Assembly (NCBI GenBank): GCA_973895155.1
Contig: OZ316898.1
Span: 374,751-438,750, forward strand
Length of the DNA stretch: 64,000 nt
Source: Marsupella aquatica
Taxonomy: Eukaryota > Plantae > Marchantiophyta
Direction: 5' to 3'
Both the position numbers and the translations under genes were made by a program. A model generated the notes under the pieces. That model made no database searches. It saw only the letters and a program-made list of their open reading frames with translations, and was not told where the DNA came from. Shown piece after piece: positions 15,901 to 50,284 of this stretch; positions within the stretch are counted from its first letter, which is position 1; each line of letters starts with the position of its first letter.

Positions 15901-16706
15901 CGTCCATACCCACGAGATTGTGGGTTAATTTGGACCTGCTCTGCCTCTACCACGGGCATAACCTAGAGCTTGCCCCCTGCCATAGTATTGGGCACCAGCC
16001 TGGGATCTACCACTACTACCACCTCGCCAACCTTGATCAGAGGTCAGCCCCCCCTGCTGGTATGGTGCATGCACAGGCTTCGAAGGCAAAACAGAACTGG
16101 CAGGACGCTGCATCACATCACCAACTACAATGTCAGGAACTAAGCAAGGTACATATGTGTAGTACTGAACATATGAAACCTCTAAACAAGAGTTTTTAAC
16201 TCAAAACCTTGTTGGGAAAACTACTTACCTGTTTCTTTTGGGGCTGCTCTGCAATGTATTCATCTTCATAACCCCCATCCTCATCCATTTCCTCTGGAAA
16301 ATACTCATCATCTGCATCTTCTTGTCTAGTGTCTGCACCCACCTGTGCAACATCAATGTCATCTCCACATTCTGCCATTGTAGGTACGACCTTCTTGCTC
16401 AACCTGTCACTCCAACGCACAGGCCCAGAGATAGTGCTGGTCACCCTTCTTGCGTACTCCTTTTGTTTCTTTGAAAATGGTGTGGCTCTGCGACATTCCA
16501 ATATGAGAATACAGTCACAATTTCAGTGCCACATTGAACTATTCATGTCACACAAACTCAGCGGAGGGGTGTAGTTGAGAATCGTTCCCTTACAATTCAA
16601 CCACATCCTTTTCCAGATCCAGTTCTGCGATTTTGGCTTTCACGTATGCTCGTTGTTCCATAGCTTTCCTTTCATACTCACACATCTCTGTGTCACTCTG
16701 TTCCAT
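12996..16706 (-). CDS. TnpA-like multi-exon gene of CACTA-1 (exon model approximate; may be disrupted)
   Basis: ORF 14501-15154 (W..L..YF...SKKKSSQMTEAR, Ptta/TnpA-like) and the C-terminal segment VGFGRV..TTFHGKRIPPGYSVVLV...LPIP...TLGDAAGSLVLWP typical of En/Spm ORF2. Confidence 0.7.
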
Positions 16707-16862
16707 CCTACTGGACCACAAAAACATATCATCTATGGTCACCCCGTATAACACAATGCAACCACAATCACTAGGCATCCATCCATACATCTGTGTTGCT
16801 TCAGAATTACTTTATTACACATCCTTCCCCTCACTAATGTCCATGCAAACAATTCACATTAC

Positions 16863-19800
16863 TCATGGCACAGGCACACTGTTGGCATCTGCATCTCTGA
16901 ATTCGCCTCCTTCAGCAAATGCATCTACCCTTGTCACAGGAATGAAGTCCCCGCTATCATGAACTACAGACACTTGGTCTGAACGCCGACGATCAAAGGC
17001 ACTATGAGAGTGTAAATGAAACTCAAGGTTTGATCCTTCCATCCGACGTTGCCTGGCCTGTTTATGACACACTACACGCCAACCTGGGGAGTCTTCCACA
17101 TCCAGGAAGAAAGCTTGCTCCACCTGACTAGGAAACACAAATGGCTCAGACCATTCGGGCAATTTCCCTCTGAAATTGGCCAGCAAGAAACCGTCGTTGT
17201 CTCTCTTCATGGTAGCCCTGTTACCAAGCCAATCCTGCCGCACCCATGAACCTTTCATAAGAATCACAGGACTGGACACCGCCCCATAGTCCAGAGCCCA
17301 TATGTCAACTAATTCTCCCACATATCCCATCTCCATCCAGGCCCTGTCGTGATTGTAGCTCTATTGCTCAAATACAGTGATGAGCCCGTAGTCATTCGTC
17401 ACCCTGTAGGCACTGTCACCATCCTTCACTCGGAAGTGATTCCCATATGCTCTCATCCGTTTGTAAGTCTTCACTTTCAGGCTAGGGGCATTAGACAGTA
17501 GGTAAACATCTGCATCCATGTCTGGGTGGGTCTCGTGATGCTCTCTAATTGCCACTCTGATCCACTCCATGAAACCTGGAAAAGTTGTTCCTGCAGTGGG
17601 ATGGGCCGCCTTCAATGACTCATACTCCCTGAACGAACAACCACACAGCATTAGCTTGGGTAAACATGAACAGGCTGAAGGAGAAAACCACACGAACACA
17701 ACATTTAAGCTCATGAACTGGATTATAGCACATGTATGCACTCACTGTATCCAGGGTTCCATCACCACAGTGTTGTGCAATACAAAGTCATGTGCCAAGT
17801 CTCTCATAGATATGGTCAGGTTCTTTGTGGTTGCAGCCCCTTCCAGTACTTCACCTATCACCCCTTCCTCCTCATCAGAATTCCACACCCTGGTCTTCAC
17901 ATGCTCATATTGTGCTATGTATTCGGTCATAAATCCCAGAGTCTCATCCTTGATGTAACCTTTAGCCATGCTTGCTTCAGGTTTGTAATATGTTCTCACG
18001 TGACCTTTGAGTAGCTTCATGTACCGTTCCAAAGGATACAACCAACGAGCACTCACAGGCCCAAATTGGTGTAGCTCTTCCACAACATGGACAAGTAGGT
18101 GGGTCATGACATCAAAAAATGCAGGAGGAAAATAAATCTCCAGGTCACACAGCACCTGAGCGACATCTTCTGTCAGTTGTGGGAAGTGTGTTTCATCCCA
18201 AACCTTCACACAAATACGACGAAACACATCACTGAGTCGCATGATCACAGTACGAACAGGCTTCTGCAACAGGCCCCTCAGGCATAAAGGCAACACCTGT
18301 TGCATCAACATATGGTAGTCATGGCTTTTCATACTACCAAGCTTTCTAGTCATGATATGCTTCTTGAAAGCACTGCCATAGTTTGAAGGAACCTTCAAAG
18401 AACTCAACCTCTGCACAAATAGTTCCCACTCTATGTCTGTCAGAACATAGGGCGCTTGGTACTTCAAGAGCACATCAGCTCTGTGGGCATGTGGCCTCAA
18501 CCAAAGATGGGGTTTCATTCCCCTCTGTTCAAGATCCAATCTCACTGAACCAGTGTCTTTCTCTCCACACAAGAATCTGAGTAGACTCTCACAAATATTC
18601 TTTTCAATGTGCATAACATCAATGTTATGTTTGCTTGGCTCAAACTCCTGCATCGTTGCAATGCAAAAGCATCAGGAAATGCCTCAAGTTTAGTCTCTCT
18701 CTTCGAAATGAATGCACATGCTCTGAACCAAAACATGTATCCCAATTAGCATCAACTCCAAGAGGCTTACCCTCCAGTACTTGAGCTCCAAGTCCAATAT
18801 GCTCAGTCTTTTTACACCATATCGCTTTATTGGATCACTCACTCCATCTTCCCTGCCCCCTCGTTTGATATAGTCATCCCTCAGTGCTCCCCACTGCCTG
18901 ATCTCCTCTTTGGTCACTCGTGCCGGGGGTCCACGTTGCTCAATCTCATTGCCAAAGTGTGCAATCAGTGCCTGTCTTTCTCTGTAAGGGTGATCTGCCT
19001 TCAGAAAACAACGATGGCCCATGTATATCACTTTCTGCAGGGCTCTGGAGTACTCACTGGTGACATTGCGCCCACAGATAGTACAAGCACAATATCCTTT
19101 TGTTGTTTGGCCTGATATCATCCCATGGGCTGGGTAGTCAGCTATAGTCAGAATGACAATGGCTCTAAGGATGAATGGGTTTAACCTCCCAAGCCTCTGT
19201 AGGACATCATATGTGAGAACTCCTTCCTCCCAAAGCTTTCTCAATTCCTCCACTAGGGGAGCCAGAAACACATCTATGTTGGCAGATACAGCACTGTCTG
19301 GCCCTGGTATCAGTAGGACCATCAGAACAAAAAATCGCTTTGTAGTCATCCAAGGAGGAAGGTTATAATTCAAAATAGTTACAGGCCAGCACGAAAATTT
19401 GTTGTTCTTGTCTCCAAATGGGTTTACCCCATCCAATGACAGCCCAAGTCTGACATTCCTCGGCTCAGCAGCAAATTCGGGATACATCTCATCTATGAGT
19501 TTCCATTGCCTTGAATCTGCAGCATGTCGTTGTAGCCCATCATCACTTTTCTTGTCAGTTGCCCAAGTCATCATCTCCGAGATGGCATGGCTTCTGAACA
19601 TCCGCTGAAGTCTGGGAATGAGTGGAAAATGACGAAGTACCTTGGCGGGAACCATAGACTTTCCTGAGTTCCGATACCTTTGCTTCCCACACTTAGGGCA
19701 TGTCAACGATTCTTTATACTCCTTTTTGAAAAGAACATGCCCATCAGGACAGGCATGGATCGAATCATAGTTCAATCCAAGATTAGATATGCATCTTTTT

Positions 19801-20594
19801 GCCTCGTACATGTTCTTGGGCAAAATATTACCATCTGGTAGCACAGTTGTTCGCAAGAATGCCAACAACTCAGAAACCAAAACGTTGGGGACATTGTGGT
19901 TGCCGCAAATGTTCAGGAACATGATGACAAATCCCAGTTTAGAACATTTGCTACCGGGGTACAAAGACTTCCTGCCTTCCTGTATTTGCAGGGGAGAGCC
20001 AAACATCCCATCATGCCCAGGGGTTTCCTGCCCTATCTCAAACTCATCAAGAGGCTCTTCGACAGGGGGCACACTTGCATCTGCAGCCGTATCCTCTTCG
20101 TTGTCCAGCCCGTCATGAAATGCATCCAAGTCTTGGAAGATGTCTCTCACCATCTCTTCCACATGAATTCCTTCGTCACGTGGTGCTGCCTGAGCACCAT
20201 CCCGTTGGAGAGCTGACAACCCACAGAGACCAGCTACAACATTTTCAAATGCACCAGGCAGAACCTCACTTGCCCGTCTTGCAGCATTGGCAGCATCAAA
20301 TTCTAACCTCCACTCCTCATCGAAAGAATCTTCCTCTGCAGGATCATTCCAAACTCGATGTCGTGGATCTCTTCCATGAACCGCGATATGCCGCCAAACC
20401 TCATTCAGACCCCTGGTACGGGATCCTTGGCAGATTGCACAAGGACATCTCATCCTACTGGCTCCTGAAAGTCTGGTTCGTAACCTTTCACGTTGCCAAA
20501 GCTTATTATCATGGCGTGATATCCTTGTGGGATGATGCAAAGGCAGTGCCTGTGCCCTGGGCTGGGTCTGGGGAGGGTGGTGACCAGGGTGCAT
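16863..20594 (-). pseudogene. CACTA TnpD transposase (Transposase_21, DUF4218, DUF4216), spliced, with one in-frame TAG at 17361-17363
   Basis: Motifs IHACPDGHVLF, RNVRLGLSLDGVNPF, YNLPPW, DYPA, DVMHIEKN, KSHDYH, FFDVMTHLLVH, WLYPLERYM and EPFVFPSQVEQAFF. Confidence 0.95.
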
Positions 20595-21027
20595 TGTAAC
20601 AGGCTGGGAGCTCTACAGTCATGGACAGCAGTGAACAAGGATGCCTAATGGTGGTATTTGTGTTCCATATATCCCTGACTGTATCTGCCAAAAGAGTTAA
20701 CATAACGTGTACTAAATTCTCACAAACCCTAAACCACCCCAAAAGAAAAAAACAGGTTCGCAAGTAGTGTACCTATTGTCAAGTGAATGACACAAAATTC
20801 CTAAATGTTGGAGGGTGTCACCACCTCCTCCGCTGTCCTCAAATGTACCGCCTCTGCATGTACGTTTATAGTGACACCCCCAGGCAGCAGGAAACAACAA
20901 TCCGCCAACAGTAAAATAAGCCCAACTGCCACCAACCATAACAAGGTACATTAGTTCAAAGATCACATTTATTTCAATGATCTGATTTATACAAAAAAAC
21001 TTGTGTCCAAATTGATGCTACTACTCC

Positions 21028-21900
21028 TCACTCTGATTCAAAATCGCTAATGACCCATTCCTCACTTGTTGTCTCATAGTCCTCTCTGTAAGGATCCTGA
21101 CCCTTCCGTGGCCAGGCCTCAAAAAGATCATAGTCCATTGGGTTTTGACGCTTCCCAGCTGCTACTGATTCCACAAGCCAAGCATATGAAACCACAAACA
21201 CATTATGGGACATGACATAAAAGCGAATGTCTCCCTTCCCAAACTTGCGGCAGGCTTTGGGATATGACTTAGTAATGACATGAGTGGTGTCCTCTGTTAT
21301 ATTCTCCTCCACTGTCCCACCTAGGTCAAGCACTGTGGACTTGTACACTTTGCACTTAACCTCTCCAATTCCCGCCTCCACAAATACCATGCTCAGCCCT
21401 TTTAGAATGGGGGTTGGTTGCTTCGTCTCCTCAGCCAACATACTCTTCAGCCTTGTAGAGCTCTGTCCTTTGTTGAGTACAGGTCCATATTGGAGATCAG
21501 CAAGCCGTGCCTTTGCTTCCCAGACTTCTTGTTCAGCCCAAGCTGATGCAGTAGCTTCTTCATCCTCCCACAACTCATATTGCTCAGTATCCTGTACAAT
21601 CTTATGTGCTATGGAATCTGTGATCCAAGAGGCCTCAACTACTTTTAGGCCTTGCTTAGTAATTGCAGAATTCATGTAGGACCATGACCACTTCTTTATC
21701 ATTGATAGCCATGTCCCTGCAACAACATGTGTAGTCTCTGGAGTGATGTCCTAAACTACAGTGCCATGGAGCTCAGAGAATCGTTTCTGTACAGTTGGCC
21801 AATGCACTTTGGTCAACCCATGCTGGCCATGGACCAAAATCGCTCTGACCCCTGTAAACACTGCTGGGTGGTCACACTTTCTACGTTTCCCAGGCTCCAT
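21028..21900 (-). pseudogene. Tandem BRCT-domain protein (~290 aa) with one in-frame TAG at 21751-21753
   Basis: ATG at 21900. Repeat 1: VFTGVRAILV..LHGTVV*DITPETTHVV..VVEASWITDSI. Repeat 2: LKGLSMVFV..LGGTVEENITEDTTHVI..VVSYAWLVESVAAGK. Confidence 0.8.
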
Positions 21901-26066: not shown

Positions 26067-26859
26067 GTAGTGCGGGTGCAGGTTCCCAATTTTGAAACAA
26101 TTTGGCTCATTTTATGTCCCGAGGGACTCCAGGAGTTTATGTATTGAGTTTCTAGGTCAAGATGCTTAATATAAGGAAATTCAATTATCACCTCGTTCCC
26201 AACTTCTATTAATTGAATATACACAAGCTGGAAGCAAGAAGACAAGCCACAATCTAGCATCTTAGCCAAACACAATCGTCCCGACAAAGCAAAACTCAGC
26301 TGGACAGAAGTCACTCGGATCCACAAAAAATTGAAGATTCACCTCCAAGCCGGAGGCCGATCACTTCAGTACAACAGCTTCTGGACGGAACAAACTCTGC
26401 TCAGCCCCACAGAAACACAAATGTTAAGGCTCCAAGTCAGAGCTCACAAACAGAAACTCAGATAAATAACATTCAAAATCTGTCCACGTTTGTGCAAAGT
26501 GTACATATTCATTCTTCTGGAATGAACACGCAATGCATACATCGCCTAGACACAGTCATTATAAATCATTGGGCAATTGGGGACCACTAAGCAGGTGTGT
26601 TCCTATTTCGAGGCTACAGGAAAGGATAGAGTGACACCAAACTGAAGAGTACACCAAAAGAAAAACAGCAAGAACCAAAGTCAATCATGTGTGGATAAAT
26701 TGCACATGGGAAGTTCCCCTGAAGAAGCACCAGTTGCTAACATTGTCACCCGAACCACACCCAGTTTATTACCTCAATGTCTTCAGCCTCAATATCCAAT
26801 CCTCAGCCCCCTGGTGCTTCCGTGTTTGTTCTGAAAATTTCTGTGATGAAATAATTATT

Positions 26860-27112
26860 TGTCACACCATTCTGAGTAGTGTAGTAGTATATCGTGCTAT
26901 TAGAGTATGTATGTTTGGTATGAGTGCTATTGGAGCCGATAAGGTTCTGTCAGGTTTGTGTGAGAGGGTACTTCTCACTTGTGAGGCATTGAAAGGTCAT
27001 CTTTCAATGTTGAGCCTTGGAGAGAGAGGAGCTTGAGTGTGGCTATGGTGGCTGTGAGCTCCGCTTGTGTAATGTGGATTCCTTGAGTAGTGCAAGGTGC
27101 GTTGGCTTGACA
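26860..27112 (+). repeat. Candidate 5' LTR (TGTCA...TGACA, 253 bp)
   Basis: 5-bp terminal inverted repeats; a second copy at 3526-3774 starts at exactly the same base; no canonical TGG PBS follows. Confidence 0.6.
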
Positions 27113-27459
27113 TACGTGTGTGATCGGATCGGTGCGGGATTGATGGGGTATTGTTGACCGAGATCGTTGTGCCGATTGTATGGAGATTACATTGAAAGAT
27201 CACATTCGAAATCTGTTGTACGGACTGTGCGGACAGAAGTTCGATTGATTGAGTTGTCGACGGTTCGTGGTAGCTCGGATCGTGTGTTGTTATCGAACAG
27301 ATCGTTGGTATCTTGACCTATATCGTTGTTGTCCGATCGGCTTGCTTCCCAATCGATGTACAGATCTGTGATTGGTGACAAGTTTTGAGTTGGAGGTCGA
27401 TTGATGATTCGTGGAGGAAAGCGAATGTTGAGTAGATGTTGGACAGTGGAAGTCGATCC

Positions 27460-27549
27460 GTGAGGCTTCAGATCCGATTGCCGACTACTGTGAGGCTTCA
27501 GATCTGATTGTCGGCTACTGTGGGGCTTCAGATCTGATTGCCGGCTATT
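27460..27549. repeat. Three copies of a 30-bp tandem repeat GTGAGGCTTCAGATC(C/T)GATTGCCGACTACT in the gypsy leader
   Basis: Read directly. Confidence 0.9.
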
Positions 27550-27789
27550 GTTGGACGATGTTGGCAAGGCGCAGGTGAAGCGACGGCTCTTTTCCTGAAG
27601 GAACGGAGCTGCCAATGCCCCGTGCGACGGTATCATCATTTCAGTGAAAGAAACGAGGGTCAAAGGTGTTGAATCAAGCTGCTGCCAGTTCTGTGGAAGG
27701 GCTGCGTTTTTCATGAAGGAAATCGACAGTTTTTGGGAGCTTTTCGTGAAGGAAGTAGTCATTTTTGGGGTCAGGTGTGAGGCGCACGA

Positions 27790-27996
27790 GGTCACCCATC
27801 CCGAAAGTGCTCGCGCGAGGCGACGCGTGAGGTCACCCATCCCGAAAGTGCTCCCAACCGTGAGCGCGAAGTCACTCATCGCGAGCGCAGGCAGGCGCGA
27901 GGTCGAGGTCACCCATCCCGGGGCTATTCCGGGCCGTGAGCGCGAGGGGAGGCACAAGGTCGAGCGCGAGGAAGTCACCCATCCCGGGGCTATTCC
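27790..27996. repeat. CpG-rich cluster of GTCACCCATCCCG motifs (4 exact, 1-2 degenerate) in the gypsy leader
   Basis: Read directly. Confidence 0.88.
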
Positions 27997-30900
27997 CAGC
28001 CGCGAGCGCTTAACTGGCAAGTTCTCATCCCACCTTGTGTACACACAAGCTTTGACAACTTGTTGTTTAGATTCAAGCGCTAGGGGGCTTTATACACTTC
28101 CTGGTTTGTTTAGAGGCCTATTCTAGGCCAAATCAGAGGCTGTTTGAGGGTTTTTGATACTTCTGAGTCCATCTAGACTCACAGATTGAACCAATTTTGC
28201 CTTGGTTCTCATCTATAACATTGGAGTGCCATTGTGAAGCCTATTATGAAGGCTCTTCCTTGAACCTTATGCACATTGTCATATTGATTTGCATTTGCTT
28301 TTGTGTGGAGAGTTGAATGGTATCCATTCTTGTTTCTGGATCCTCTTCACACATGTTTCCTGTTTATGCGCCATGTTAGTTTCGTGTGGGCGCTTGATTC
28401 CATAGGAGTGATCCGGGTTTGCAACTGGACATTCTAGTGTGCTGTGTATTTCTCTCTTGGTGATGTTGGAGTGATGCCCAACACACTATGGTGAGTGCTT
28501 GTGGTGCTGACAGGGATAGATTGCCCTTAGGGTTAGCACATAGATTAGGTTAGGGTTGGTCACCACGGATTCTTCTGGTGCTGCTGGATTACCCGATGGA
28601 CGACGGACCGGTTTCACTCGGAGTAGGGCACAGTTTCGGCCAGCGGCATTGGTAGCAGTCAGCAGTGCAGCTTCAGACAGTGATTCTGATGAGGACTCAG
28701 TGACCAGTTCTCCTCATCATCACGTGGTTGCACCTTTGTTGTGGGATATGGACGAGATGTACGGGGCTACAAAGGGCCCACGACGATACTCTGGTGCAGT
28801 TGGCACAATTGATCTGGATGACTTCATCCAGGAGTTTGATACGTGGTGCGATATGCAGACATTGCGTAATGTCACGTTGTTTACCCCTTTCATGGCATGG
28901 AAGGGATTATTCCAGCATTTGGAGGGGCCACCCATGAATGACTACCATGAGTTTCGGAAGGCTCATTTGGTTGAGATTGAGGCATGGAGGCAGCATTGGT
29001 CGCCTAATTACGTGTCCATCACCTATGGCACTAGTGCGGCTGCCCAACCAATTGCCACAGCTGCTGCTTCTTCTAGCAGCACTAGCCAGAGTGGCACACC
29101 ATCCACCACCAACACTCCAGCAGCATCCACCACTACTCCTGCCGGTGTGATTGTGACAGGAACTGGAGTTGCGCCAGCATTTAATCTTGTGGTGGAATTC
29201 TTTGAGGTACTGAAGTAGAACTATCAGGGTGTGAGAACTGATAAGTTGAAGGGTCTTCAGGAGTTCCAACGCAAGACTGGAGAGAGCCTACGTGAGGCAT
29301 ACACACGTATGCGCAGATTGATCACTGTCACCAAGGGAGTGACAGAGGCTCAGGCAGTCCAGTTTTGGTATGCAATTCTGGACAGAGAATTGCGACGCAG
29401 AGTGAGAGATGTCACTCTGCTTAGGGATTCAGATCCCACATTAGCAGTTGTTTTCACCCTTTCGGAGCGCATTGAGCTCAATATGGTGAATGAGAAGGTG
29501 GTGACTTCCGGATTTGCCAAGGAAGCACCAAAGGCTGCATCTACATCCACACCACAGCCTACTGCACGGAAGAGCCAGAGGGAGAAGCCTACTGCACGAG
29601 AGTCTACCAGCCAGAGACCTATGCCCTCTTATGCTGGACAGCAGTCAGGATGTTGGACCTGTGGTGGGGATCATGCACAGAGATATTGTCCAGATCATAG
29701 AGGATCAGGGGGAGCATCAGCGCCTGATCAGCGACAGTGTGATCATTGTGGAGCTCCTGGACACACCAAGGATAGGTGTTTCTCACTCCACCCTGAGTTA
29801 CGGAGAGGAGGATCCCGTACACATGATCAGGGAAGAGGAGGTAGAGGTGGTGGACGTGGTCGTGGCATGCCACATGCAGGGAGACAGGGAGGTGACGCTG
29901 CCCCTGCTATAACCATAGATCCAAAGGATGCTAAGATTGCTCAATTGGAGCAACAACTAGCTGCCATGGCTAGTTCCCAGGTGAGACCTAATTCTGGTGA
30001 TGGGGCATCTACATCCTATGGACCTTCCACATCCCATGGTCCTTCCACATCTTATGGAGCTGATGGAGACCTTGCCACCATGGGATTCATGTGTGGCACT
30101 GCACATATTGATGCATCAGCAGCTTTGACACGTGGGGCAGCCAAAGCTCTTGAGCCCCGAGGAGCAGTAGTGGAGTTAGATCCACAAAGGGGGGATGCAC
30201 GTCGGCAGACAAAGCTTCCTCAGTCTTTTACATTGTCAGAGACAATTCAGACTGCCTCTATGAACCCGGTTCGGACAAACCCTGATGTGGGTAAGTTGGC
30301 AGAATCAGGTAGTGATGCAGCAGGGATGACATGTACCTTGCTGGGGGCGGCTACTGCCATAGTACGCACCCCATTATTTTCAGCGACAGACATGCTGAAC
30401 TTGGGAGTTGGTCCTGCAGAAGTGTTCAGATTGGCAGCTACACTCTGTGAGGACACTCCAGTGGTTGCTTCCCATGTAGAAGCAACTTGTAGTGTTGATG
30501 CAGTGAAGACCATGCCACCTACTGCTACTAGTGAGACATGGCATGCAGCAGCAGCGAGGTTGGTGGATTTACCAGCACGCCCTGCATTTGAGAGGACTAG
30601 GTTTAAACCTAGTGTTGTGTCATTGGATAATCGGAGTGGTATCTTCCGATTAGTTGGGCCTTCTGGAGCAGTATACCAGCCAGAGAGAGTGTTACTGGAT
30701 ACTGGTGCTCAGCCCTTGATGTTGGGGAAGTCTGCCATACGTGGATTGGGACTGCGTCCAGAGGATTTGGAGGATTGTCCCTTTCCCATTCAGACTTCAT
30801 TGGGGGGACCTACACCTACACAGCATATCACCAGGAGACCACTTGATTTGAGGATTCAGGAAGGTCATACCACAGATACAGGCGCGAGCTATTCTGACTA

Positions 30901-31394
30901 AGGCAGAGTCATATGATGTGTTGGTGGGATGTACAGTGCTCTACCCCATGGGATTTATTCTTGATTTTTGGGAGGAATCAGTGTCATATAGACCTGATTG
31001 GCAATCAGGAGATGCTCGATTGAGCAAATTGCCAGTGAGATTTAGTGGACCTGTGGGAGGCTCTAAATCCACACCATTGTCTTTGGCAGCATTCAGTGGT
31101 GTAATTGCTGGACCTGATGATTTGATTGAGGGTAATGCGCATGCAGCCGATGTTCCACCATTGGAGGAGTCTCATGAGGAGCACATCATGCGAGGGTTAC
31201 CTGTTGGCAGTGTTGTGCCACCAGTGTGGGGCACTGCACAAGCCTTGCCACAGGCAGCAGCACGATTGGTACATGATGCATGGCGTCATGCTTTTACACC
31301 ACAGTCAGGAGTAGAGCAGTCTCTTGCAGATGGACCTGTGACTCTTTCACCATTGGATACCACTCCTATTGCTTGGCAATATCCACCGGAGGGT

Positions 31395-32340
31395 ATTTGT
31401 TTGTTGGATCTTTTTGGTGGGATTAGCACTGGATTGGCTGCTATTCTTCAGGCAGGAATTCCTATGCGTCGTTATTTATATGTGGAGATAGATGAGACAG
31501 CACGGAGGGTCTCATTGCAACATGTGGCTATGTTGGTGGATAGATATCCACAATTGCTACCAGTGGATGCTGTTCGTGGTTATCAGCATGCACTACCTGC
31601 TGATATTTCATTGTTGGGGGCGGATCATCTACATCGTGTTGGCCCCATTGATTTGGTGATTGCTGGTTGGCCATGTCAGGGCCAATCTAGAGCTGGCGTT
31701 GGGCATGGACTTCATGATCCACGCTCTGCATTATTTTGGGAGATGTTACGGGTGCTGCGTCACCTCCAGTTACATCAGACACAGTCTCCAGCATACATTT
31801 TGGAGAATGTGCCATTGTTAGGTGATGATCGTAGTCGGATTGTTGCCAGTGTTCACCAGGTGAGGTCTTGGATTGGACCTGCTGTGTTATTGGATGCTGC
31901 ACGTGTGGGTTCTCGTGCACATCGTCCACGCTTATGGTGGACTAATTTGATCCCATGTGAGGTGCTGAAGCGCGCATTTGACAGCATTCCACGCTCACCA
32001 GTCTTAGTGGTGGATGATATTTTGGATCCAGGGCGTCGTGCACAGGGTGTGACCCAACCTGATAGACCTCCATTGGCAATGGTCAATGCAGTTGGGTGCC
32101 CACATTGTGCATTACCCACTCTTGTAAGCCACTCTGCTTCATATGCATTCAGAGCAGGTGGCCCTGGACTTGTATGGGACACAGCTCTCCAGCAGTTAGT
32201 GGAGCCTACTGCTGATGAGGGAGAGCGTGCTATGGGATTTTTGACTAGCACCACTGCAGTTGCCTCTGTGTCAGAGGGTTTGCGGCGCCAGGTTCTTGGT
32301 CAAGCAATGGATTTGAATTGTTTGACTTGGATTATCAGCT
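31395..32340 (+). other. C5-cytosine DNA methyltransferase domain (DNMT3-like, canonical motif order) within the polyprotein
   Basis: Motif I LDLFGG (DLFGG 31407-31421), II VEID, III ADI, IV AGWPCQG (PCQ 31671-31679), VI ILENV (ENV 31803-31811), VIII AHRPRLWWTNL, IX ERAMGF, X RRQVLGQAM; no stop inside the domain. Confidence 0.93.
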
Positions 32341-35300
32341 TGGGAGTAGCTGAACAGTTGCGGATGCGCTCTGCCGGAATTACTGATTGTCCCTTGGTGA
32401 GCTTGCGGTCCACTGAGACAGTATTGACCACAGCTGGGGGCGAGCAGACAGTCCATGGCCCTATGACAGGATTGGCAGCTGGACAGATTGTTGAGCAAGA
32501 AGAGACTGCTCAATCTACTGCTAAATAGCAATCATCGGCTATCTCTTCTACCCTACAAAGAGATATTAGGGATTTGGTGGAGAGTTGGGAACCACAGCTT
32601 GGCCCTAAGTTAACAGGGGAGGAGAGACGTCGCATGCATCGATTCCTGAAGAGTTATTGGAATTGTTTTGCATTCAGCATGAAGGATTTGGGGACATTGA
32701 AGGGCCCTGGTATTCAGATTGAATTGGCTAGTGATGCGCCAATCTTTCGTAGACCATACCGTTATAGTGACATGGAGAGAGCTCTGATTCAAAGCAGAAC
32801 TCAAGATTTGTTGGAGGCTGGATTGGTGGAGATTTCATATGGGGAGTATGCATCTGCCACAGTGATGCCAGCCAAGAAGGATGTGCATGGCAATTACACA
32901 GATAGGCGCATGTGTGGTGATTACAGACCTATTAATTGCCAGACAAAATCTGATCGATATGCCATGCCCACACCTGAGGAGATCTTTGATGCTGTGGGGC
33001 ATGCAAAGGTTTTCAGTTCATTGGATCTGAGGGCAGGATACCATCAGCTTCCAATTAGGCATGCTGACAGGTCCAAGACAGCATTCTGGGGGATTGATTC
33101 TTATAGCAAAGATCGTTTGTATCAATGGTTATTCTTACCATTTGGGTTGAAGAATGCACCAGCTGAGTTCCAGAGAGTCATGGATCGAATCCTTGCAGGT
33201 TTGGATTTTGTCAGATGTTATATTGATGATATTTTGGTCTATTCTTCTACTGTGGAAGAACATCAGCAGCACTTGCAGACTGTGTTGGAGAGATTGAGAG
33301 CACATGGGTTGAAGCTCCATCCTAGCAAGTGTAAGTTCTTCCAAGACCAGATTGAGTATTTGGGCCACACCATATACCCAGGGGGATTGGGTGTACAGCA
33401 GACTAAAGTGGAGGCCATTACACAGATTCCTTGTCCTACTGATGTGAGTAGAGTTCGTGCATTCTTGGGATTGGCGAGCTACTACAGGAGGTATGTTAAA
33501 GGATTTAGCCAGCTTGCTAAACCTTTGACCATACTCACTAAGTTGGATCAGGAATGGATTTTGGGTGATGACCAGGAGCATGCCTTTCAGGAGTTGAAGC
33601 AAAGGTTGGCATCATCCCCTATTTTGAGAAGACCCATTTCAGGCAGACCATTTCAGCTACACACTGATTGGAGTGGAGTAGGACTTGGAGCAGTGCTGAC
33701 TCAGAAGGATGATGAGGGGAATGAGTTTGTTGTGGCTTATGCCAGTAGATCAAACAATTCAACAGAGGCTAAGTATAGCTCTTATGAGGGAGAGTGTTTG
33801 GTAGCAGTGTGGGCTGTTGCACACTTTCGTTGCTACTTGTTTGGTAACCCCTTCACCTTGATCACTGATCATCAGCCTCTTAAGTGGTTAATAGAGTCTG
33901 ACAAGCTTACAGGGAAGCTTGCACGATGGGCATTGTTGTTACAGGAGTATGATTTCCAGGTGGTGCATAGGCCTGGAAAAGTGAACTTGGATGCAGATGG
34001 ATTAAGCCGCAATCCATGTACCAGTCAGCAGGATGAGACTGGAGCCAGATGGCATGATGAGTCAGATAAGGAGATGGTGCCAGGATGGCATGCATCTGCC
34101 TTTCTTTGTTGGGTGCCAGCATACAGTGGATCTGTGGACTCTACTTCATTGGATGGAGTGGGTGATGAGTCTTCAGATGTGGATGTTGGTGAGGTAACTT
34201 CTGGACAACAAGATATTCACAATGATGTGAGAGTGTTGGAATATCTGCGCAATAGTTCTATTGTTGGCAGTGTTGATGCCAAGGAACGTGACAGGATTCT
34301 ACAGAGAGCCAAGAGGTTTCGATGGGAGGGAAACCATCTTTTGAGAGTACTGCATGATGGTAGGTTGTTGGTGGTACCAAAACCATCACAACGAGTACAT
34401 TTGGTGCGACATGCGCACGAGGAGTTGGGTCACTTTGGTGTGAAGTGCACTTACAGCTTGCTGCAGACGCAGTATTGGTGGCGTGGTATGCACACTCATG
34501 TCCAGCAGTTGATAGCTAAGTGTGTGGTATGTGACAGAGTGAGAGCATCATTTAATGCTCCCACTCCCCAGTTGCACCCATTACCGATCATGGGTTTGGG
34601 ATATCGTTGGAGTTTGGATTTTGCTGGTCCATTACCTCTTACCCAACGTCATAATCGGTATGTTTTGGTCATGGTGGAGCACTTCTCCAAGTGGATTGAG
34701 CTAGTGGCGTTGCCAGATAAAGCCAGTGGAGGAGTTGCTGCTACATTTTTGGATCGTGTACTCAGTCATTTTGGAGCACCAGCTGAGGTGTTGACTGATC
34801 AGGGAACTGAGTTCCATGGAGAGTTTGAGAGTTTGTGTGAACAAGCTCTGATCATCCTGAGGCAGATGGATTAGCTGAGAGAGTTGTGCAAACTGTGAAG
34901 AGAGGATTGCGTAAGTATGGCTTGCAGGTTGGTCATCTGGGAGATTGGGATCTCCAGCTACCTTGGTTAGCTATGGGCTACCGTTTCAGTCGGCAAGCAT
35001 CACTTGCATCCTTCTCACCCTACTTTTTGCTCTATGGTAGAGAGCCAGATTTGCCAGCAGCTATTCATCGTCATGCTGCACCAGTTGTGAACTTGGATGA
35101 TCCTGATGTTTGGGTCAAGGTGTGTTCAGAAAGAGCACGGGTATTTCAGAGAGTGATGCCCATGGCTTTTGACAACCTTGCCATTGCCCAACATCGTGAT
35201 ACTTTGAGGTATGCCACTATTCGTGGAGGAGGTTACCGTGCAAGCATTCGACGATTTCATCCTAGTGATTATGTTTATTTGCAGCAGACAGCACCCACGA

Positions 35301-35488
35301 CACTTGATGTGACCGCAGGCCGGACAATCTTACGTGTGCGTGAAGTGTTGCCTTCTGGTGTCCTGATGTTGGAGGGACGCGATGGTATGGTTTGGAAGGA
35401 TCATGTGCGCAACTGTGCACCATGTCACCTTCCCAACATTGATGGTACAGTAGATCCAAGCTTGGCACATGTTCGTGTTGGCTTGAAA

Positions 35489-35623
35489 TGTATGTTGTGT
35501 GGATCTGCTCAGGGAGCAGCTACTATGTTGATTTGTGATAAGTGTTCTAGAGGATGGCACATGTCATGTTTGACACCACCATTGCAGGTGATTCCTAGTG
35601 GATCATGGTTGTGTCCTCAGTGT
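35489..35623 (+). other. PHD finger at the integrase C-terminus
   Basis: C4HC3 pattern CMLC..MLICDKCSRGWHMSCLTPPLQVIPSGSWLCPQC. Confidence 0.92.
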
Positions 35624-35793
35624 CGGTGAAGCCGACTAGTTATCATTTGTGTTCTCTTGGCAGATATGGATTGCAGGTAGGTGATCGATGGGGCTCACTT
35701 GCACCCGGCCTCCTGATCTTCACACCTAAAAAGGTGTATATCAACCTTGTAGAACTCATGGCTAGCTAGAGTTAGGGGACCTTACTCCCAGCT

Positions 35794-35800
35794 AGGGGGG
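35794..35800 (+). promoter_or_regulatory. Polypurine tract of the gypsy element
   Basis: AGGGGGG, then CGAT, then TG at 35805; ~165 nt after the polyprotein stop. Confidence 0.7.
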
Positions 35801-36990
35801 CGATTGTGGGTTTTGGACATGTGTGGACATGAGTTCCACTTGTATTCCATTCTCTTGTATTTGTGATGTGGCAGTGTGACTATGTCTGGATGTATGTGAC
35901 AAGCGATGTATGTTGTGTAGCGATATGTATGCGCACGACATATTCAATACATTCAATAGCAAAGAGAACTCAATCACAAAAGAAAAATAGTTAGTGTGAA
36001 TGCTAATTTCTCAACACTTAACTAAATTCAAACCACCAATTCAAGTAGTAAGTTTCAAAAACTTGCCTTTACATGAAGAGAAACCAATTGGCCATGCATG
36101 TTACTAAAGCAATAAACAAATAATTAGGCTCAACCCCGGGCTCAACACACAGGCAAACTACTCGAAACATGCTGCTGAGAAGTAGCATTTTTTGAATGTC
36201 AGACTATGTGTAAGTGCCATGATCGTGCTCCTACGTTTCACAAGGAGGGCTGGCCCGAAAGGGAGAAGCAACAATGTGGAGTCTATACACGTAGCACAAA
36301 TCCCAGTTTAGAAGGGTGGATGAAGTTCAGACAAGAGTTCAGAACTTGCCATTTGAGATTGCCAATCTGAACTTCACATTCAGACAGGACTTCATCCAGT
36401 TCAGGAGTTCAGATAGGAGTTTAGACAATCTGAAGAGGACTTTGGACTTGAATGAGGGACAGCGTGGCCATATAGTTATCCTTGTGGCCTTCAGCTGCGT
36501 GTCTCAGGCTGAATTTCACTTTCCAGTTTCGAGAGTTCTGAAGGTCTAGTTTTAGTAACTTCCTCCTGACTCGACTTGGGAGCATTCTCCCTATTTGCTA
36601 GCTTGTAGTTAGCTTTGACTCCTGTGAGCTTAGTTGACGACCCTCTTGAGATATTAACAATTAGAACAAACACAAGTTGTCAAGACAGATTCCACCGGAG
36701 CAAAAAGTCCAAAATCAGGTGAAAGAAAACCTAAGGAAAGTCCATAAGAACGAAAGTAGGAAGGCAGGTGCACGGGCCACCGAGAAAAGTAAAGGATGCA
36801 TGTGATTAGTGGGGAGGGATCTTAGCAAAAACAGGGGAAAGCAAGGGAACTTGCTGCTAAAATCAGCTGAACGATTGCACGGTTCCTATAAATTTAGTGG
36901 ACCTTAAGGCCGTCTGTTCACCCCCCCACCCCATTGCCAGAGCACGGGGCACAAGGCATGTTCTGATACAGGGAGGAGCAAAATAGTCAT

Positions 36991-41338: not shown

Positions 41339-44300
41339 TCAAACCTGGTCCTCATCCTCTCCTCCATTTGACACAATAATAATGTCAGGTTTTTCCGAGA
41401 TAATGAAACGGGACCGTGGCACATACGGTATAACAACTGACCACTCTGGGTCTAGTGGGTACAGAATATAGAAACACTGCTCAAGGTGACTTGGGAATGT
41501 AAATGGTTCAGATGTTTGCCAATGAGATGGTTGAAAGCTAGTTGCTGATGTCTTCAGTCGAGTAAACCCACACTCATCAAGAAGTACCGTGTGATTATCA
41601 CCAACCAGGTGAATTTTGAACCACTTACACTTGAAGACATACTCTTCAAATTTGGAATCGGCATCATAGGATATGATCAAGATCTCCTCAATCTTCCCAT
41701 AGTGAGGCACCACATCTCTGATCACATTAGTGTCATGACGGCTACTTTGTGAATCTTGCATGAACTGCCCTTGAACTCCACAATCAAAAGTTCTTCCCCT
41801 CTTCTCATCAAGGTCAGAAATCCTGAAATGCCTCCCTTGTGTCCACATTGTTGTTCTGGTCTGAACAAGTCTTAAAGGACCATGAACAATTGTTCGAACC
41901 TCAGGAGTCATATCTGGAAAATGTGATACATTCTCACCTTGGGCCACCATAGCATCCAACTGAAGTACTTTCTCCTTCATATACTCAAGGAACTTTGGAA
42001 AGATCCTTGGGCGACGACTCTCCCTCTTTGCATCCTCATAAAACTCTCTCCAATCTTCCATCACATTGCTGTTACTCAACATGAAAGTACTAACCTGTGT
42101 CAACTCCACTGCGGTTAGTAAGCGTGTTTTTTTTGCACATGTTAAACGGTCCTCCTCCACTTCCCTCTCTTCCATCCAAGTGCGTGGACAACTAGGATCA
42201 ATGGTAGCTAAGATGTTACTACAATAAAACATACTCTCAGCTGCCAAGTATCCAGTTGCCATGCTCCCCTCCACTCGTGCACGGTTCCGTACACAAGCCT
42301 TTAACACGGCCATATACCTTTTCAGCCAATACATCCACCTACAATGCACCAGACCGGCAATGGCAACCTCCCTCACAAGATGAACGAGAAGATGCACCTG
42401 ACAATCAAAGAAGGAAAGAGGGAGGGCCTTCTCCAACTTGCATACCACCTCTGCTGCCAATACCTCCATCCATGGTATCTCTTCTTCATATATTTCCTTT
42501 GAGCATATCCATCTCAACAAAGTGCCCAGTGACCAAAGGGCGTCTTGCACTTCTTCACTCCCCAAACCTATGATTGCCACAGGAAGTATATGTTGTAGTA
42601 AACGATGATAGTCATGTGTCTTGAGATACATTGGCCATTTATGACTGTCCTCCATCCCAAAAGCCTTACGTAGATTGGCACCATAGCCTGTAGGAAACCG
42701 CATCTGCCCTATGCGTTGTCGAAACTCTCTTCTTTCACCAACACTCAAAACCCATGGAGCTGAAGGACGATGTTCCATCCCTGTGGATTCATCAACTGTT
42801 ATCCATACATCTGGATGTCGTTCTAGATCCTGGCATGCCTCCCTAAAATTAATGTTCTTTTCCCCATAAAAGTGCTTGATCAAAGCCTTCCCAACATTTC
42901 CCTCTATATGCATGGGGTCTAACAAGTGATGAATCTTCAACTCAGGCCAATAGGGCAAAGTGGCCACTATACTCCACCTTGTCAATCCACTACCATCAAA
43001 TCCCATGGCATCTTCAGGGTCTGCCACGCTATCAACTATGGATTTCCAATACAAAAATGTTGTGCGGTCAGGTATCTCACGCTCATCACCATTGATCATG
43101 TCAAAGTCTAAAAATAAGAGGGGGTTAGACCTCATGTGATGCCCAAGTGGAAGAAACTTGGTATGACCAAGGTAGATTATCTTGTGCAGCCATTTTGAGT
43201 ACTTGGCCATATCGTGAAGGCTTGGACCACAAGTGGAGCATGCCTTGTACCCTTGAGTTTGGAACCCAGAAACAAACCCAAACCCTGCTCACAAAATAAC
43301 ATTCTTAATTAGAGTCAAAGGAATTGAAAAGTTCATGTATGTAGAATTAAAGAGGGACTTCCTTCCAAACAAACTTGATCTCCAATACATGAAAAAAATA
43401 CAAATCCATACCACTCACCTGGATAGTCATGCATGGTCCACATAATGATTCCCTTCAATTGGAAGACACGTGGTAACCCTCCTGTAGTTGTCCGACCATC
43501 ATATGCCCATACACCCCCCCATAATTTATGGAGTTCCCCAACCAAGAGCGCCAAGTAGGTGTCCATGTTTTTTACCTTAGATGGACCTGGGATAATCAAT
43601 GATAGCAATAAGAATCCCTTTTTCATGGACAACCATGGGGGAAGGTTGTAATTCATAACAACCACCGGCCAAACCGAAGTAGGGCGCCCTTTCCCTCCAA
43701 GGGAGTGTGGGCTCACCCCATCTGATGCCAACCCCAACCTCACATGACGAGGGTCACGTGCAAACTCTGGCCATTATGACTCCACATGCTTGTGATCAGG
43801 GGAATCAACTGGCAACCGCATGACGCCGGCCTCTGATCAATGTGTCTTATGCCATACCATCAATTCTGCCAAGTCAGAACATCGGTACATGTGCAACAAT
43901 CGAGGAATAATAGGAAACCAACGAACAACTTTTCTAGGCACCTTTGAGGTCAACATGTTGGTTTCATATCGAGGCTCTTGACAAATTGGACACTCAGTTG
44001 CGCTGGCATTGATCTCATGATAGAGAATGCAGTCATTCACACAAGCATGAATGATATGGTATTCCATGCCAATGGATGATAGAACCCTCTTTGCCTTCTT
44101 CCAAGTTCCTGGCAACACATTTTCACTGGGTAACAAGAGATCATGGCAAATTTGCAAACAAATCCGATAGTAGCGCATTGCTTGCCTTGTGTTTTGCTTG
44201 AAGATTCATCAATGCCAAGATGGCAGATAGTCTATTCAAACGAGCACCCCCATAAATAGGTGTTCTAGCATGTGCCTCAGCTTCTTCCCATTGTTTTTGT

Positions 44301-47893: not shown

Positions 47894-48269
47894 TGAGTCA
47901 ATCTCAGCTGCCCCAGCTGAGATGCGCAAAAAAAAAAAAATTCGCATTTTTTTTGGGCGCCCCAACTTGGCGGCCTCTCTAAGATGACGTGGCGACTGAT
48001 ATCAGGTCGACTGATGGAAAACACTGATAACTAATGATGTAACTTTACTCTTGCGAAGGGAATAGATTCGGAAGTGCCTCGCAAGTTGCTAGACTATTTG
48101 CGAGGGCGCGGGCTTCGCAGTTTCCCATGCGTATGTCATCGCAAACCCATTTTTGAACGGCGTAAACATCGGCGGGAGCTTGCATTCGGGCTCATTTCAG
48201 TTTTTGAGCAAGACGAGAAGGGCCGGGGCGCGCGCGACAGTACGAGGGAGACTGTGACAGAGGGGAGCT

Positions 48270-50284
48270 ATGGCTACCGGTGAGGGGAGTGGAGGGCAAG
48301 GTGGTAGTGGTAGTGGTAGTGGCAATGGGGGAAATCCAGAGAAAGAGAAGAATGCCTGGGCAGACTTAGTGGCCCAACATCTCAGTGCTGCACAATTGGG
48401 AGAAGTGAATCTCAATTCTCCAGCAGGGCTTGCCTCTTTGAGTGCCATTCTTGGACAGGTTTTGCAAACTGGGATTGTAGCAGGACAAGCTACTAGAGAG
48501 GGGGAGGAGAGGGCCGTAGCTGAAGAGAAGGCTAGAGAGAAAAAAAGGAAGAGAGAGGAAAGAACTAAGTCGGGAGTTGCCTCTCCTCAAGCCCTAGAGA
48601 AGCAGAAGAGAAGAGAGGAGAGAGATTCAATTCAAAAACAGAGGGAGGAGCAACGTCAGAAAGAGGAAGCAAGAAAAAAACTTCCATTCATTGCCTTGGA
48701 GACGAGTGGGACTCCAACTGAGCTAGCGTATGCAGGGGCTAAGAGCACAATCAAACAGATTATCACAAGCAATTTCTCACGAGGCATGCAGTGGGGGAAG
48801 ATTGAGAAGGCAGAGCGAAAGAGGGTCATCAACCAAATCAAGGATGCATTTCGCAATGGGCCTGACATAGATGAGCAATGGTTGGCAGATAAGATTTCAA
48901 AATCTATGTCTCAAATGCGATACCATGACAGGATGAAGATTAGAGCCCACCTGAAAGACTTGAGATCATACAGGAACTTGCGCAGACCCCTCCACTTCAC
49001 CAAGGACATCTGGAATTCATTTTACAAGATTGAGGTGCAAATTAAGGCAGCTCATGAGTTGGAAGAGTGGAAGGGCAATCTACATCGAGCCTTGAAATCA
49101 AAGGAGGCCGGGAAGCTCCCCCCTGACCATGACCTGAAGCCACTTGAGCAGAAGGTAGCTGAGATGCAGAAGGTGGCCGACCAGGAGGGAAAGCCACCCA
49201 AGCGTTTCACAGATGCAGCCAAACGAGTGAAATCCACCCCCAATCTAGTCCACAAGTTGGGTCAAGGCGGGCTCCCCGGCCTCAAGTCACACTTTGTGAG
49301 TGCCTCTTGCTCCTCCCTAACCTCTCTATTCCTTTCAGAGTTGTGCAATGCAAGTGAATGACATCCCCGAATGTTCTTGCTGTTGTGCATGCTTGCTTGG
49401 TTACTAGTTTAGGGCAACTCTGACACTTAGAATTTTTGGCAAATTTTTAAAAACTCTCGGGAACACAGTTTGCAAAGGTGTTGCGATGCGCATTTGTTCG
49501 CAAACCCCTCGCAAAGTCTATCATGGACTTTTTCCATTTCATTTTTCCGATGCCTTTGCGAACAAATGCGCATTGCAAACTCCATCGCAACGCCTTCGCA
49601 AAAAATGTGGTTCGCAAGTTGCCATGCTTATAGGTTCGCAAATTTGAATTTTTAAAATTTTTTTGGGTCATGTTTTGTAGTTGAGGATTTAGGCGTCACT
49701 TGTGGCTATAGGGTATGCTTAAGGAAAAAATTAACCAATTTTAATTGGTTTTATGCATGGCAGTATTGGAGGTACAAAAGGAAGATATCAAAAAAGCATA
49801 TTGAGGTGGCGATAGAGCACGGACGAAAGTACCTCTTTGCGATGGTAGATGCCGAGTTGGCTACTGTAAGTGTCTAAGTGTGAACCATATGATTAGCATG
49901 CGAACATTGTGAGTGACCCTTTATGTCTTGCGGAAACTAATGATATGTAATGGATGCAGGATTCGGATGAGCCTGAGGGGTTGGGTGCTGATGTGAGCAG
50001 TAGTGATGACGATGAGGGGGCTACTCCTGGTACTAGTTGTGCTCGGGGGGAGTAGTTGTGAGGTAGGTTCTTCCCACCGTGGTAGTGGTGGTAGTCATGT
50101 GTCATCAACACACGTTGATGACCAGGGGGAGGAGGAGGACCCTGAGGATGAGGAGGAGGAGCAGGAGGGGCAGGAGGAGCCAGAGGAGCAGCAGGAGCAG
50201 GAGCGCCGACGGCCATCACGCACCCGTCACCAACAGGATCCCCGGAAGGATAAGGGCAAGAAGCCAGCCAAGAAGCCAACCTAG
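48270..50284 (+). CDS. TnpA-like/ORF2 gene of CACTA-2 (3 exons; probable frameshift in the last exon)
   Basis: Exons 48270-49295, 49764-49865 and 49960-50284 have phase-0 GT-AG junctions; charged coiled coil, HKLGQGG motif and acidic tail. Confidence 0.6.

What the first reader, a model, noticed from the sequence alone, without database searches (positions are those of the whole stretch)
28556..35629. Ty3/gypsy retrotransposon with a DNMT3-like cytosine methyltransferase built into its polyprotein
Seen: between the aspartic protease (DTG 30698) and RT (YIDD 33219) lies an uninterrupted ~315-aa domain with the C5-MTase catalytic motifs in canonical order (LDLFGG, EID, GWPCQ, ENV, AHRPRLWWTNL, ERAMGF, RRQVLG). 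It is in the same frame as the protease C-terminus and RT; only one TAG (32526), probably a decayed CAG, separates it from RT. Known: motifs VIII-X resemble DNMT3 rather than the circularly permuted DRM. DNMT-carrying retrotransposons have been reported in dinoflagellates and a charophyte alga; I know of none described as a land-plant gypsy lineage. Inference: the enzyme would be processed from Pol and packaged in the particle, so it could methylate its own cDNA or the insertion site. That could serve as camouflage, self-regulation or epigenetic writing at new loci.
Basis: partly seen in the sequence, partly recalled or inferred. Interest (0 to 1): 0.95.

Follow-up and report, generated by a model that had tools for sequence, protein, structure and literature searches.

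The report
DNMT3-carrying plant retrotransposon with readthrough stop
This is a broken copy of a jumping-gene family, shared with liverworts and peat mosses, that encodes a DNMT3-type DNA methyltransferase in the same frame as its capsid protein, ahead of a conserved and likely leaky stop codon, so the enzyme would be made in bulk and likely methylates the element's own new DNA copies.

Summary
Real. Window 26860-35940 is a Ty3/gypsy element: Gag, protease, DNMT3-like methyltransferase, RT, RNase H, integrase, PHD; TG...CA ends, 4-bp target duplication. This copy is dead (one premature stop, two frameshifts). The family occurs in Marchantia, Calypogeia, Riccia and Sphagnum; its DNMT is under purifying selection (dN/dS 0.11-0.23, 10 divergent pairs).

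So the DNMT ends the Gag-protease frame and RT-integrase is likely the minor readthrough product: the DNMT would be made at capsid level. The family also shows a Tf1-like self-priming site and permuted, split LTRs.

DNMT3-bearing Gypsy elements are published for the alga Klebsormidium; nine literature searches found no land-plant description and no mention of this stop. This scan already noted the family and its split repeats on another, peat-moss-like genome; I saw no note of this stop. Enzyme activity and target are untested. New variant of a known kind.

The parts
26860..35940 (+). Whole element, 9081 bp, from TGTCAC to CACGACA, layout A - internal - B
   Evidence: ends match the terminal motifs of relatives; TATT directly on both sides (26856-26859, 35941-35944)
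26860..27188 (+). Segment A (about 330 bp): the 5' terminal repeat unit; inferred promoter, R and U5 part of the LTR
   Evidence: same length and position as the 339-bp A repeat of relatives with A...B-A-B layout
26999..27010 (+). Predicted RNA 5' end (self-primer), complementary to 27189-27200
   Evidence: 12-nt perfect inverted repeat, longest of 30 shuffles 10; same position with changed but paired letters in relatives
27189..27200 (+). Predicted primer-binding site directly after A (Tf1-like self-priming)
27201..28747 (+). Long 5' leader with short tandem repeats (27460-27551, 27788-28011)
28748..30595 (+). Gag region with two zinc knuckles (29651-29779); premature TAG at 29216-29218
   Evidence: aligns with residue 1 onward of the Marchantia 1278-aa protein P0002; knuckles read from the translation; no Pfam gag hit
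30596..31100 (+). Aspartic protease, DTG at 30698; frameshift near 30880
   Evidence: Pfam Asp_protease_2 E 0.004, below cut-off; frame switch against intact relatives
31350..32360 (+). DNMT3-like C5 cytosine methyltransferase, motifs I-X in canonical order, frame unbroken
32526..32534 (+). TAG CAATCA: conserved end of ORF1 followed by a CARYYA hexamer, likely readthrough signal
32529..34013 (+). Reverse transcriptase (YIDD 33219) and RNase H
   Evidence: Pfam RVT_1 E 3e-34, RT_RNaseH E 5e-35; best solved relative Ty3 RT E 7e-74
34014..35410 (+). DDE integrase (zinc finger 34383-34547, core from 34602); frameshift near 34860
   Evidence: Pfam Integrase_H2C2 and rve
35489..35629 (+). C-terminal PHD finger and stop of ORF2
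   Evidence: Pfam PHD E 2e-11; conserved in relatives
35790..35803 (+). Purine-rich tract (PPT-like) directly before B
   Evidence: CTAG-G-run conserved in five of five loci shown
35804..35940 (+). Segment B (about 135 bp), single copy; ends CACGACA
   Evidence: matches B of relatives

Best explanation
This is a dead copy of a bryophyte-type Ty3/gypsy retrotransposon whose first frame encodes Gag, protease and a DNMT3-like methyltransferase and ends at a conserved stop, which ribosomes likely read through now and then to make RT, RNase H, integrase and PHD; the methyltransferase would therefore be made at capsid level and most likely methylates the element's own cDNA. Shown: domain order, ends, target duplication, breaks in this copy, spread of the family, purifying selection, conservation of stop plus CAR-YY. 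Inferred: readthrough (about 0.8); release of the DNMT by the protease and packaging (about 0.7); catalytic activity (about 0.75); own cDNA as main target, so that new copies arrive already methylated (about 0.5). Inferred for replication: the RNA primes itself as Tf1 does; reverse transcription yields an LTR of B plus A, and integrase joins at the internal B|A junction (CA-2nt-TG), so inserted copies are permuted (A...B here, A...B-A-B in some relatives), probably by way of a circle.
For: DNMT3 identity. Catalytic residues kept in 116 homologous rows: Cys 110, Glu of ENV 114, the two Arg of motif VIII 109 and 107. dN/dS 0.11-0.23 in 10 of 12 pairs, including 0.14 at dS 0.25; RT 0.05-0.11. Stop: 37 of 40 RT starts that follow a DNMT in metagenome loci have TAG or TAA plus CAR-YY 15-22 codons upstream, as has the window; after removing identical contexts 27 of 30. 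A further locus, L110, has TAG CAATCA. Flanks of four lineages are 25-45% alike; DNMT-to-stop distance is 55, 79, 93, 110 or 113 codons. The second codon varies between Ser, Leu and Pro (TCA, TTA, CCA, CCC), so the constraint is on the bases. Random premature stops: 0 of 919 followed by CARYYA, 14 of 919 by CARYY. L019 and L110 have two open frames split only by this stop, with the first Met of ORF2 at codon 117, inside RT. The closest protein (88%) ends at the same residue. CAR-YYA is essential for TMV readthrough and works after UAG and UAA in plants (PMC2754532). Ends.
Against: No RNA, ribosome or protein data for this element. The main moss-type group has CAACCC, one base off the consensus, and an ATG right after it; L021 and L020 have Met at codons 5 and 14, so separate initiation is possible there. 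In Candida Tca2 the sequence flanking a gag-pol stop did not direct readthrough in a yeast reporter (PMC2194720). The Klebsormidium Gypsy DNMT3 showed no activity in yeast, called inconclusive by the authors (PMC5890265, section 10). CpG observed/expected in the element's frames (0.31-0.42) equals that of two CACTA frames in the window (0.35), so there is no footprint of self-methylation. Two pairs of close, dead moss-type copies give dN/dS about 0.5. Most divergent pairs are near saturation (dS 1.3-2.0). A symmetric two-LTR circle predicts an A-B-A...B form, seen in 0 of 18 5' ends. This copy has Gly where 103 of 116 rows have Arg in motif IX.
Confidence: 0.62

Rival explanations
1. The DNMT is active but works in trans on chromatin: released in bulk from ORF1, it methylates resident copies, competing transposons or the insertion site, rather than cDNA in the particle.
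For: Capsid-level synthesis exceeds what two DNA copies per particle need (inference). Moss host DNMT3 establishes de novo CG and CHH methylation without small RNAs (PMC6453930, passages). The integrase carries a PHD finger in most relatives.
Against: In deeper relatives the DNMT is fused to RT or lies between RNase H and integrase, positions that point to the cDNA complex. No methylome data here.
Confidence: 0.2
2. The stop is a true terminator and RT-integrase is made from its own start: internal promoter, reinitiation, or splicing with the TAG as acceptor. The DNMT would still sit in ORF1 at Gag level.
For: ATG directly after the hexamer in the moss-type group, Met at codons 5 and 14 in two others; Tca2 has a minor junction promoter (PMC2194720); TAG is a legal acceptor (recalled).
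Against: No conserved ATG; first Met lies after the conserved CFAF block in 3 of 7 junctions and at codon 36 in the window; no T-rich tract upstream (T 22-33%); the conserved bases lie 3' of the stop and equal a known readthrough signal.
Confidence: 0.15
3. The domain is kept for DNA binding or shielding, not catalysis.
For: No activity of the Klebsormidium domain in yeast (PMC5890265).
Against: Catalytic Cys, Glu and Arg and the SAM-binding glycine are nearly invariant over deep divergence.
Confidence: 0.1
4. A host DNMT3 fragment captured by chance in this one copy, or a nested insertion or assembly artefact.
For: None found.
Against: Same order in dozens of loci and in annotated Marchantia, Calypogeia and Sphagnum proteins; open Gag-protease-DNMT frames of 1278-1451 aa; purifying selection.
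Confidence: 0.01

Closest known systems
KnitGypsy-Dnmt3 of Klebsormidium nitens (de Mendoza et al. 2018, PMC5890265; abstract, sections 9-11 whole, passages, peer-review file passages; figures not held)
   Same: Gypsy domains, unpermuted DNMT3 domain, purifying selection, DIRS-like split repeats; this RT groups with Klebsormidium and Closterium RTs (36-row group, SH-aLRT 88)
   Different: Land-plant hosts; there the DNMT is said to be in the same ORF as RT and RNase H, here it ends the Gag-protease ORF before a conserved stop; PHD, self-priming and target duplication are not mentioned in the text I read. The four Klebsormidium gene models retrieved lack a DNMT, so direct kinship with the named element is not shown
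SymbioDIRS-Dnmt3 (same paper)
   Same: Retroelement DNMT3, split repeats; shown to methylate CG de novo in yeast
   Different: Tyrosine recombinase element in dinoflagellates; described as an independent capture
TMV-type (type I) readthrough, UAG-CARYYA (PMC2754532, PMC4132726, passages); SIRE1 and MuLV readthrough (PMC2194720, passage)
   Same: Stop followed by CAR-YYA
   Different: In the retroelements named the stop lies at gag/pol or pol/env; here it lies after protease and an accessory enzyme
Tf1/Sushi and Tcn1 self-priming Ty3/gypsy elements; Tj1 (PMC6317226, PMC4600332, passages)
   Same: No tRNA site seen after the repeat; 10-17 nt complementary to the predicted RNA 5' end; Tj1 also has a stop between gag and pol
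   Different: PHD instead of a chromodomain; DNMT; permuted LTR. No reference RTs were at hand to test clade membership
EpiLTRs and DAM-LTRs (bioRxiv 10.64898/2026.05.21.726589, passages)
   Same: LTR elements with methyltransferase plus chromatin reader
   Different: DNMT4-related and DAM enzymes with chromodomain, in Cymbomonas and Euglena; the preprint sets them apart from streptophyte Gypsy-DNMT3

Membership tests
Ty3/gypsy retrotransposon | Order Gag-PR-RT-RH-INT | tested here: met
Ty3/gypsy retrotransposon | RT closest to Ty3-type RT | tested here: met
   Ty3 RT E 7e-74, next group 1e-50
Ty3/gypsy retrotransposon | TG...CA ends with 4-5 bp target duplication | tested here: met
   TATT in the window; of 8 relatives with both ends, 6 perfect 4-mers, 1 with one mismatch, 1 not scoreable
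Ty3/gypsy retrotransposon | Two full LTRs flanking the coding region | tested here: not met
   no LTR pair in the window; relatives show A...B-A-B (4) or A...B (8)
Ty3/gypsy retrotransposon | Primer site after the 5' repeat, purine tract before the 3' repeat | tested here: met
   self-priming-type complement in 9 of 10 testable A segments; G tract before B
DNMT3-type C5 methyltransferase | Motifs I-X unpermuted, catalytic PC, ENV, RxR | tested here: met
DNMT3-type C5 methyltransferase | Closer to DNMT3 than to DRM, DNMT2 or bacterial enzymes | tested here: met
   similarity ranking only, no host plant DNMT3 in my tree
DNMT3-type C5 methyltransferase | De novo methylation activity | not testable with these tools
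   needs an assay
Gypsy-DNMT3 (KnitGypsy-Dnmt3 kind) | Intronless DNMT3 within a Gypsy element, under purifying selection | tested here: met
Gypsy-DNMT3 (KnitGypsy-Dnmt3 kind) | DIRS-like split repeats | tested here: met
   in relatives; the window copy has the shorter A...B form
Gypsy-DNMT3 (KnitGypsy-Dnmt3 kind) | DNMT in the same ORF as RT and RNase H | tested here: not met
   conserved stop between them in this clade; met in deeper relatives such as P0135
Gypsy-DNMT3 (KnitGypsy-Dnmt3 kind) | One clade with the Klebsormidium element | tested here: inconclusive
   RT tree groups Klebsormidium RTs nearby (support 88, quick tree), but those models carry no DNMT
Type I (CARYYA) readthrough | In-frame stop plus CARYYA, conserved | tested here: met
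   full hexamer in window, L007, L019, L020, L021, L044, L110; CAACCC in the main moss-type group
Type I (CARYYA) readthrough | Measured readthrough | not testable with these tools
   needs reporter or proteomics
REXdb plant lineages (Tcn1, Chlamyvir, Phygy, Selgy) | RT-RH-INT placement among reference elements | not testable with these tools
   no reference set; the REXdb paper has 0 occurrences of PHD, methyltransferase, Marchantia or Klebsormidium in its main text

The most novel reading that the evidence does not exclude
Land plants, the model liverwort Marchantia among them, host an old Gypsy lineage that writes its own cytosine methylation: it makes an active DNMT3 at capsid level by placing a leaky stop after it, primes itself without tRNA, and integrates through a permuted, circle-like intermediate cut at an internal att site, so that each new copy arrives already methylated.
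Probability: 0.3. Interest if true: 0.88.

Novelty: new variant of a known kind. Interest (0 to 1): 0.62.

Why it matters
What retrotransposon-borne DNMTs do has been open since 2018, because they were known from algae with few genetic tools and the Klebsormidium enzyme gave no signal. The family is present in Marchantia with open 1278-1281-aa Gag-protease-DNMT frames, which makes the question testable in a genetic model with methylome resources. A 2019 review passage says methylase-encoding transposons are absent from 'land plants, such as tracheophytes' (PMC6338049); bryophytes at least are an exception. The conserved stop changes the expected dose of the enzyme from RT level to capsid level, and explains why annotators split these elements into a 'DNMT gene' and a separate pol, which can inflate host DNMT counts. 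The permuted ends hide the family from LTR-pair finders and suggest an unusual integration route for a DDE integrase.

Tried and rejected
No whole genome is held for this window, so copy number, host and intact copies in this genome are open. No RNA holder listed. Contigs laid on 32200-32900 show a many-copy family (1758 contigs in X1, 716 in X2) and no variant row at 32526-32534, but only 40 of 99 rows were shown, so I give this little weight. Depth across the whole element was not obtained; its ends rest on sequence comparison. Viral contigs gave only phage methylases at 29-44% and no RT relative. Prokaryote genomes gave one contig, clearly this retroelement. CpG depletion as a footprint of self-methylation: not distinctive. 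Folding 3' of the stop: z -0.9 to -4.2 in 7 of 7 junctions against a crude 2-mer shuffle, a hint only. Atlas searches added only family names. Two papers on retroelement recoding that I recalled are not held. Rejected: decay of the 32526 codon; chance capture; the simple symmetric two-LTR-circle model as a full account (0 of 18 expected reciprocal forms). Trees are quick LG+G4 trees with long branches flagged; rows were thinned by identity (123 to 74 for DNMT; 98 to 55, plus 6 added, for RT).
Full report
Observation. The motifs and frames are as reported. Pfam finds protease (weak), DNA_methylase, RT, RNase H, integrase and PHD in Ty3/gypsy order. The 337-aa domain at 31350-32360 is nearest to DNMT3A/B/C among solved structures by sequence, profile and fold (model pLDDT 73, pTM 0.80; Foldseek E 5e-16); DRM, DNMT2 and bacterial enzymes score far lower. 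No host plant DNMT3 was available for a tree, so 'DNMT3-like' rests on this ranking.

Extent and state. The element runs from TGTCAC at 26860 to CACGACA at 35940 with TATT on both sides. Against open relatives it has a premature stop in Gag (29216) and frameshifts in the protease (near 30880) and integrase (near 34860), so it cannot make its own proteins. The surroundings are CACTA and copia remnants. The host is not known; in the DNMT tree the copy sits in a 13-row clade (support 100) with Marchantia, Calypogeia and Sphagnum proteins, and in the RT tree in a 5-row clade (99) with Marchantia and Calypogeia, so a bryophyte is likely.

Family. 82 longer and 263 similar-length proteins match the domain (each search scored only about 8000 candidates, and 120 of the 263 were listed). 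Named hosts: Marchantia polymorpha and paleacea, Calypogeia, Riccia, three Sphagnum species, Mesostigma, Closterium; no vascular plant among the rows shown. 79 metagenome loci were fetched (80 kept of 95). dN/dS for the DNMT is 0.11-0.23 in 10 of 12 pairs and about 0.5 in two pairs of close dead copies; RT gives 0.05-0.11 where dS is defined, and 0.44-0.49 in the same two dead pairs. Catalytic residues are nearly invariant in 116 rows. The domain is a selected part of the family.

The stop. Many homologous proteins end 55-170 residues after the DNMT, and the closest one ends at the very residue before TAG 32526. Walking back from RT in its own frame in every locus with an upstream DNMT gave 41 rows (40 from relatives, one the window): 38 have TAG or TAA followed by CAR-YY, 15-22 codons before the RT anchor; the three misses are L058 and L060 (nearer stops in decayed copies) and a second, distant element in L051; 27 of 30 after removing identical contexts. 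Hexamers: CAATCA (window, L020, and L110), CAGTTA (L019, L021), CAACCA (L007, L044), CAACCC (main moss-type group). Flanks of the four lineages are 25-45% alike, and random premature stops are followed by CARYYA in 0 of 919 and by CARYY in 14 of 919 cases, rows not de-duplicated. L019 has frames of 1369 and 1047 codons split only by this stop; L110 likewise. CAR-YYA is the signal required for TMV readthrough, shown in plants after all three stops (PMC2754532, passages; PMC4132726, passages). I infer programmed readthrough. Against it: an ATG follows the hexamer in the moss-type group, and Tca2 shows that a gag-pol stop need not be read through by flanking sequence alone (PMC2194720, abstract and passage). 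Either way the DNMT belongs to ORF1 with Gag and protease. In deeper relatives it is fused to RT or lies between RNase H and integrase. Apparent fusions in Marchantia and Sphagnum gene models have shortened linkers and are probably annotation splices (inference).

The ends. No LTR pair exists in the window. Four relatives show A...B-A-B and eight A...B; the B|A junction is CA, two bases, TG; ends carry 4-bp duplications. The same junction occurs in the distant L019, L020 and L110. A G-rich tract precedes B, and directly after A lies a 10-17-nt complement of a site inside A in 9 of 10 testable segments (shuffle maxima 8-10; the window's second copy only ties its maximum; L001 fails; L020 is cut off), with different but paired letters in three lineages. 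That matches Tf1-type self-priming (PMC4600332, PMC6317226, passages). If these are the primer sites, reverse transcription makes an LTR of B plus A, while insertion happens at the internal junction: inserted copies are permuted. A one-LTR circle, or cutting of both junctions, gives the window's form; a two-LTR circle gives A...B-A-B, but its reciprocal was seen in 0 of 18 5' ends, so the model is incomplete. Later recombination between repeats may also produce A...B. Abutted-end circle junctions of IS3/IS30 elements are a recalled parallel, not tested.

Mechanism. Best reading: ORF1 yields Gag, protease and DNMT in equal amounts; the protease likely frees the DNMT in the particle, where it would methylate the new cDNA, so that copies arrive silenced or disguised. 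Activity and target are not shown; CpG depletion does not set the element apart from its neighbours. It is suggestive that DIRS elements, which also have split repeats, also carry methyltransferases (PMC5890265, discussion).

What is known. De Mendoza et al. 2018 describe KnitGypsy-Dnmt3 in Klebsormidium: DNMT3 in Pol, Ka/Ks below 0.2, DIRS-like repeats, no activity in yeast (figures not held, and supplementary figures may show more on domain order). Later papers say 'streptophytes' without naming land plants in the passages read. Nine searches found no paper on a land-plant lineage, the readthrough stop or the permuted LTR; subscription journals, including the Marchantia genome paper, and Repbase were not searchable, and bioRxiv supplements are closed. 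This scan has noted the family at least nine times on other DNA and the split repeats twice; I had reached both readings before seeing those notes except for e1-7364918, and the short notes shown do not mention this stop.

Verdict. Real; a new variant of a known kind. The architecture is not new in principle, but its presence in bryophytes, the likely capsid-level expression through a conserved readthrough stop, and the permuted self-priming ends are undescribed in what I could search and make an open question testable in Marchantia. Interest 0.62.

Noticed in passing
window 3526-4072: Second, 80% identical copy of the element's first 530 bp, starting at the same TGTCAC and with its own paired 10-nt self-priming arms; no coding region follows.
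   Followed up: partly
L110 (GTDB contig CADCWO010000201.1) and protein P0157: This eukaryotic retroelement lies in a cyanobacterial metagenome assembly, and a relative is named as a bacterial methyltransferase: likely mis-binned contigs. L110 closes on itself with a 127-nt overlap, which an assembler can produce from repeats.
   Followed up: partly
P0039, P0042, P0049, P0059, P0130 and others: A sister clade carries the DNMT between RNase H and integrase instead (20 rows in one group, support 96), so the domain has changed position within the lineage; P0135 is a single 2811-aa frame with no stop.
   Followed up: partly
cluster of P0002: Several Marchantia copies, two of them 1281 aa long, are annotated on the V (male) chromosome.
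   Followed up: no
window 35686-35803: Between the PHD stop and the G tract lie a conserved block (GATGGGGC...GCACCC) and a hairpin-like stretch, shared with distant relatives; role unknown.
   Followed up: no
window 35489-35623: The PHD has Gly, not Trp, two residues before the zinc-binding His; by recalled rules it lacks the methyl-lysine cage and would read an unmethylated H3 tail.
   Followed up: no
window 12996-21750 (-): CACTA-type element (Transposase_21, DUF4218, Transposase_24) with a BRCT-domain frame at 21028-21750 upstream.
   Followed up: no
window 41339-43288 (-); 271-1608 (-); 51093-54204; 55121-55822: Second CACTA-type transposase and Ty1/copia remnants.
   Followed up: no
window 61130-63256 (-), 48258-49361 (+), 12996-13850 (-): Open frames of 708, 367 and 284 codons with no Pfam match.
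   Followed up: no
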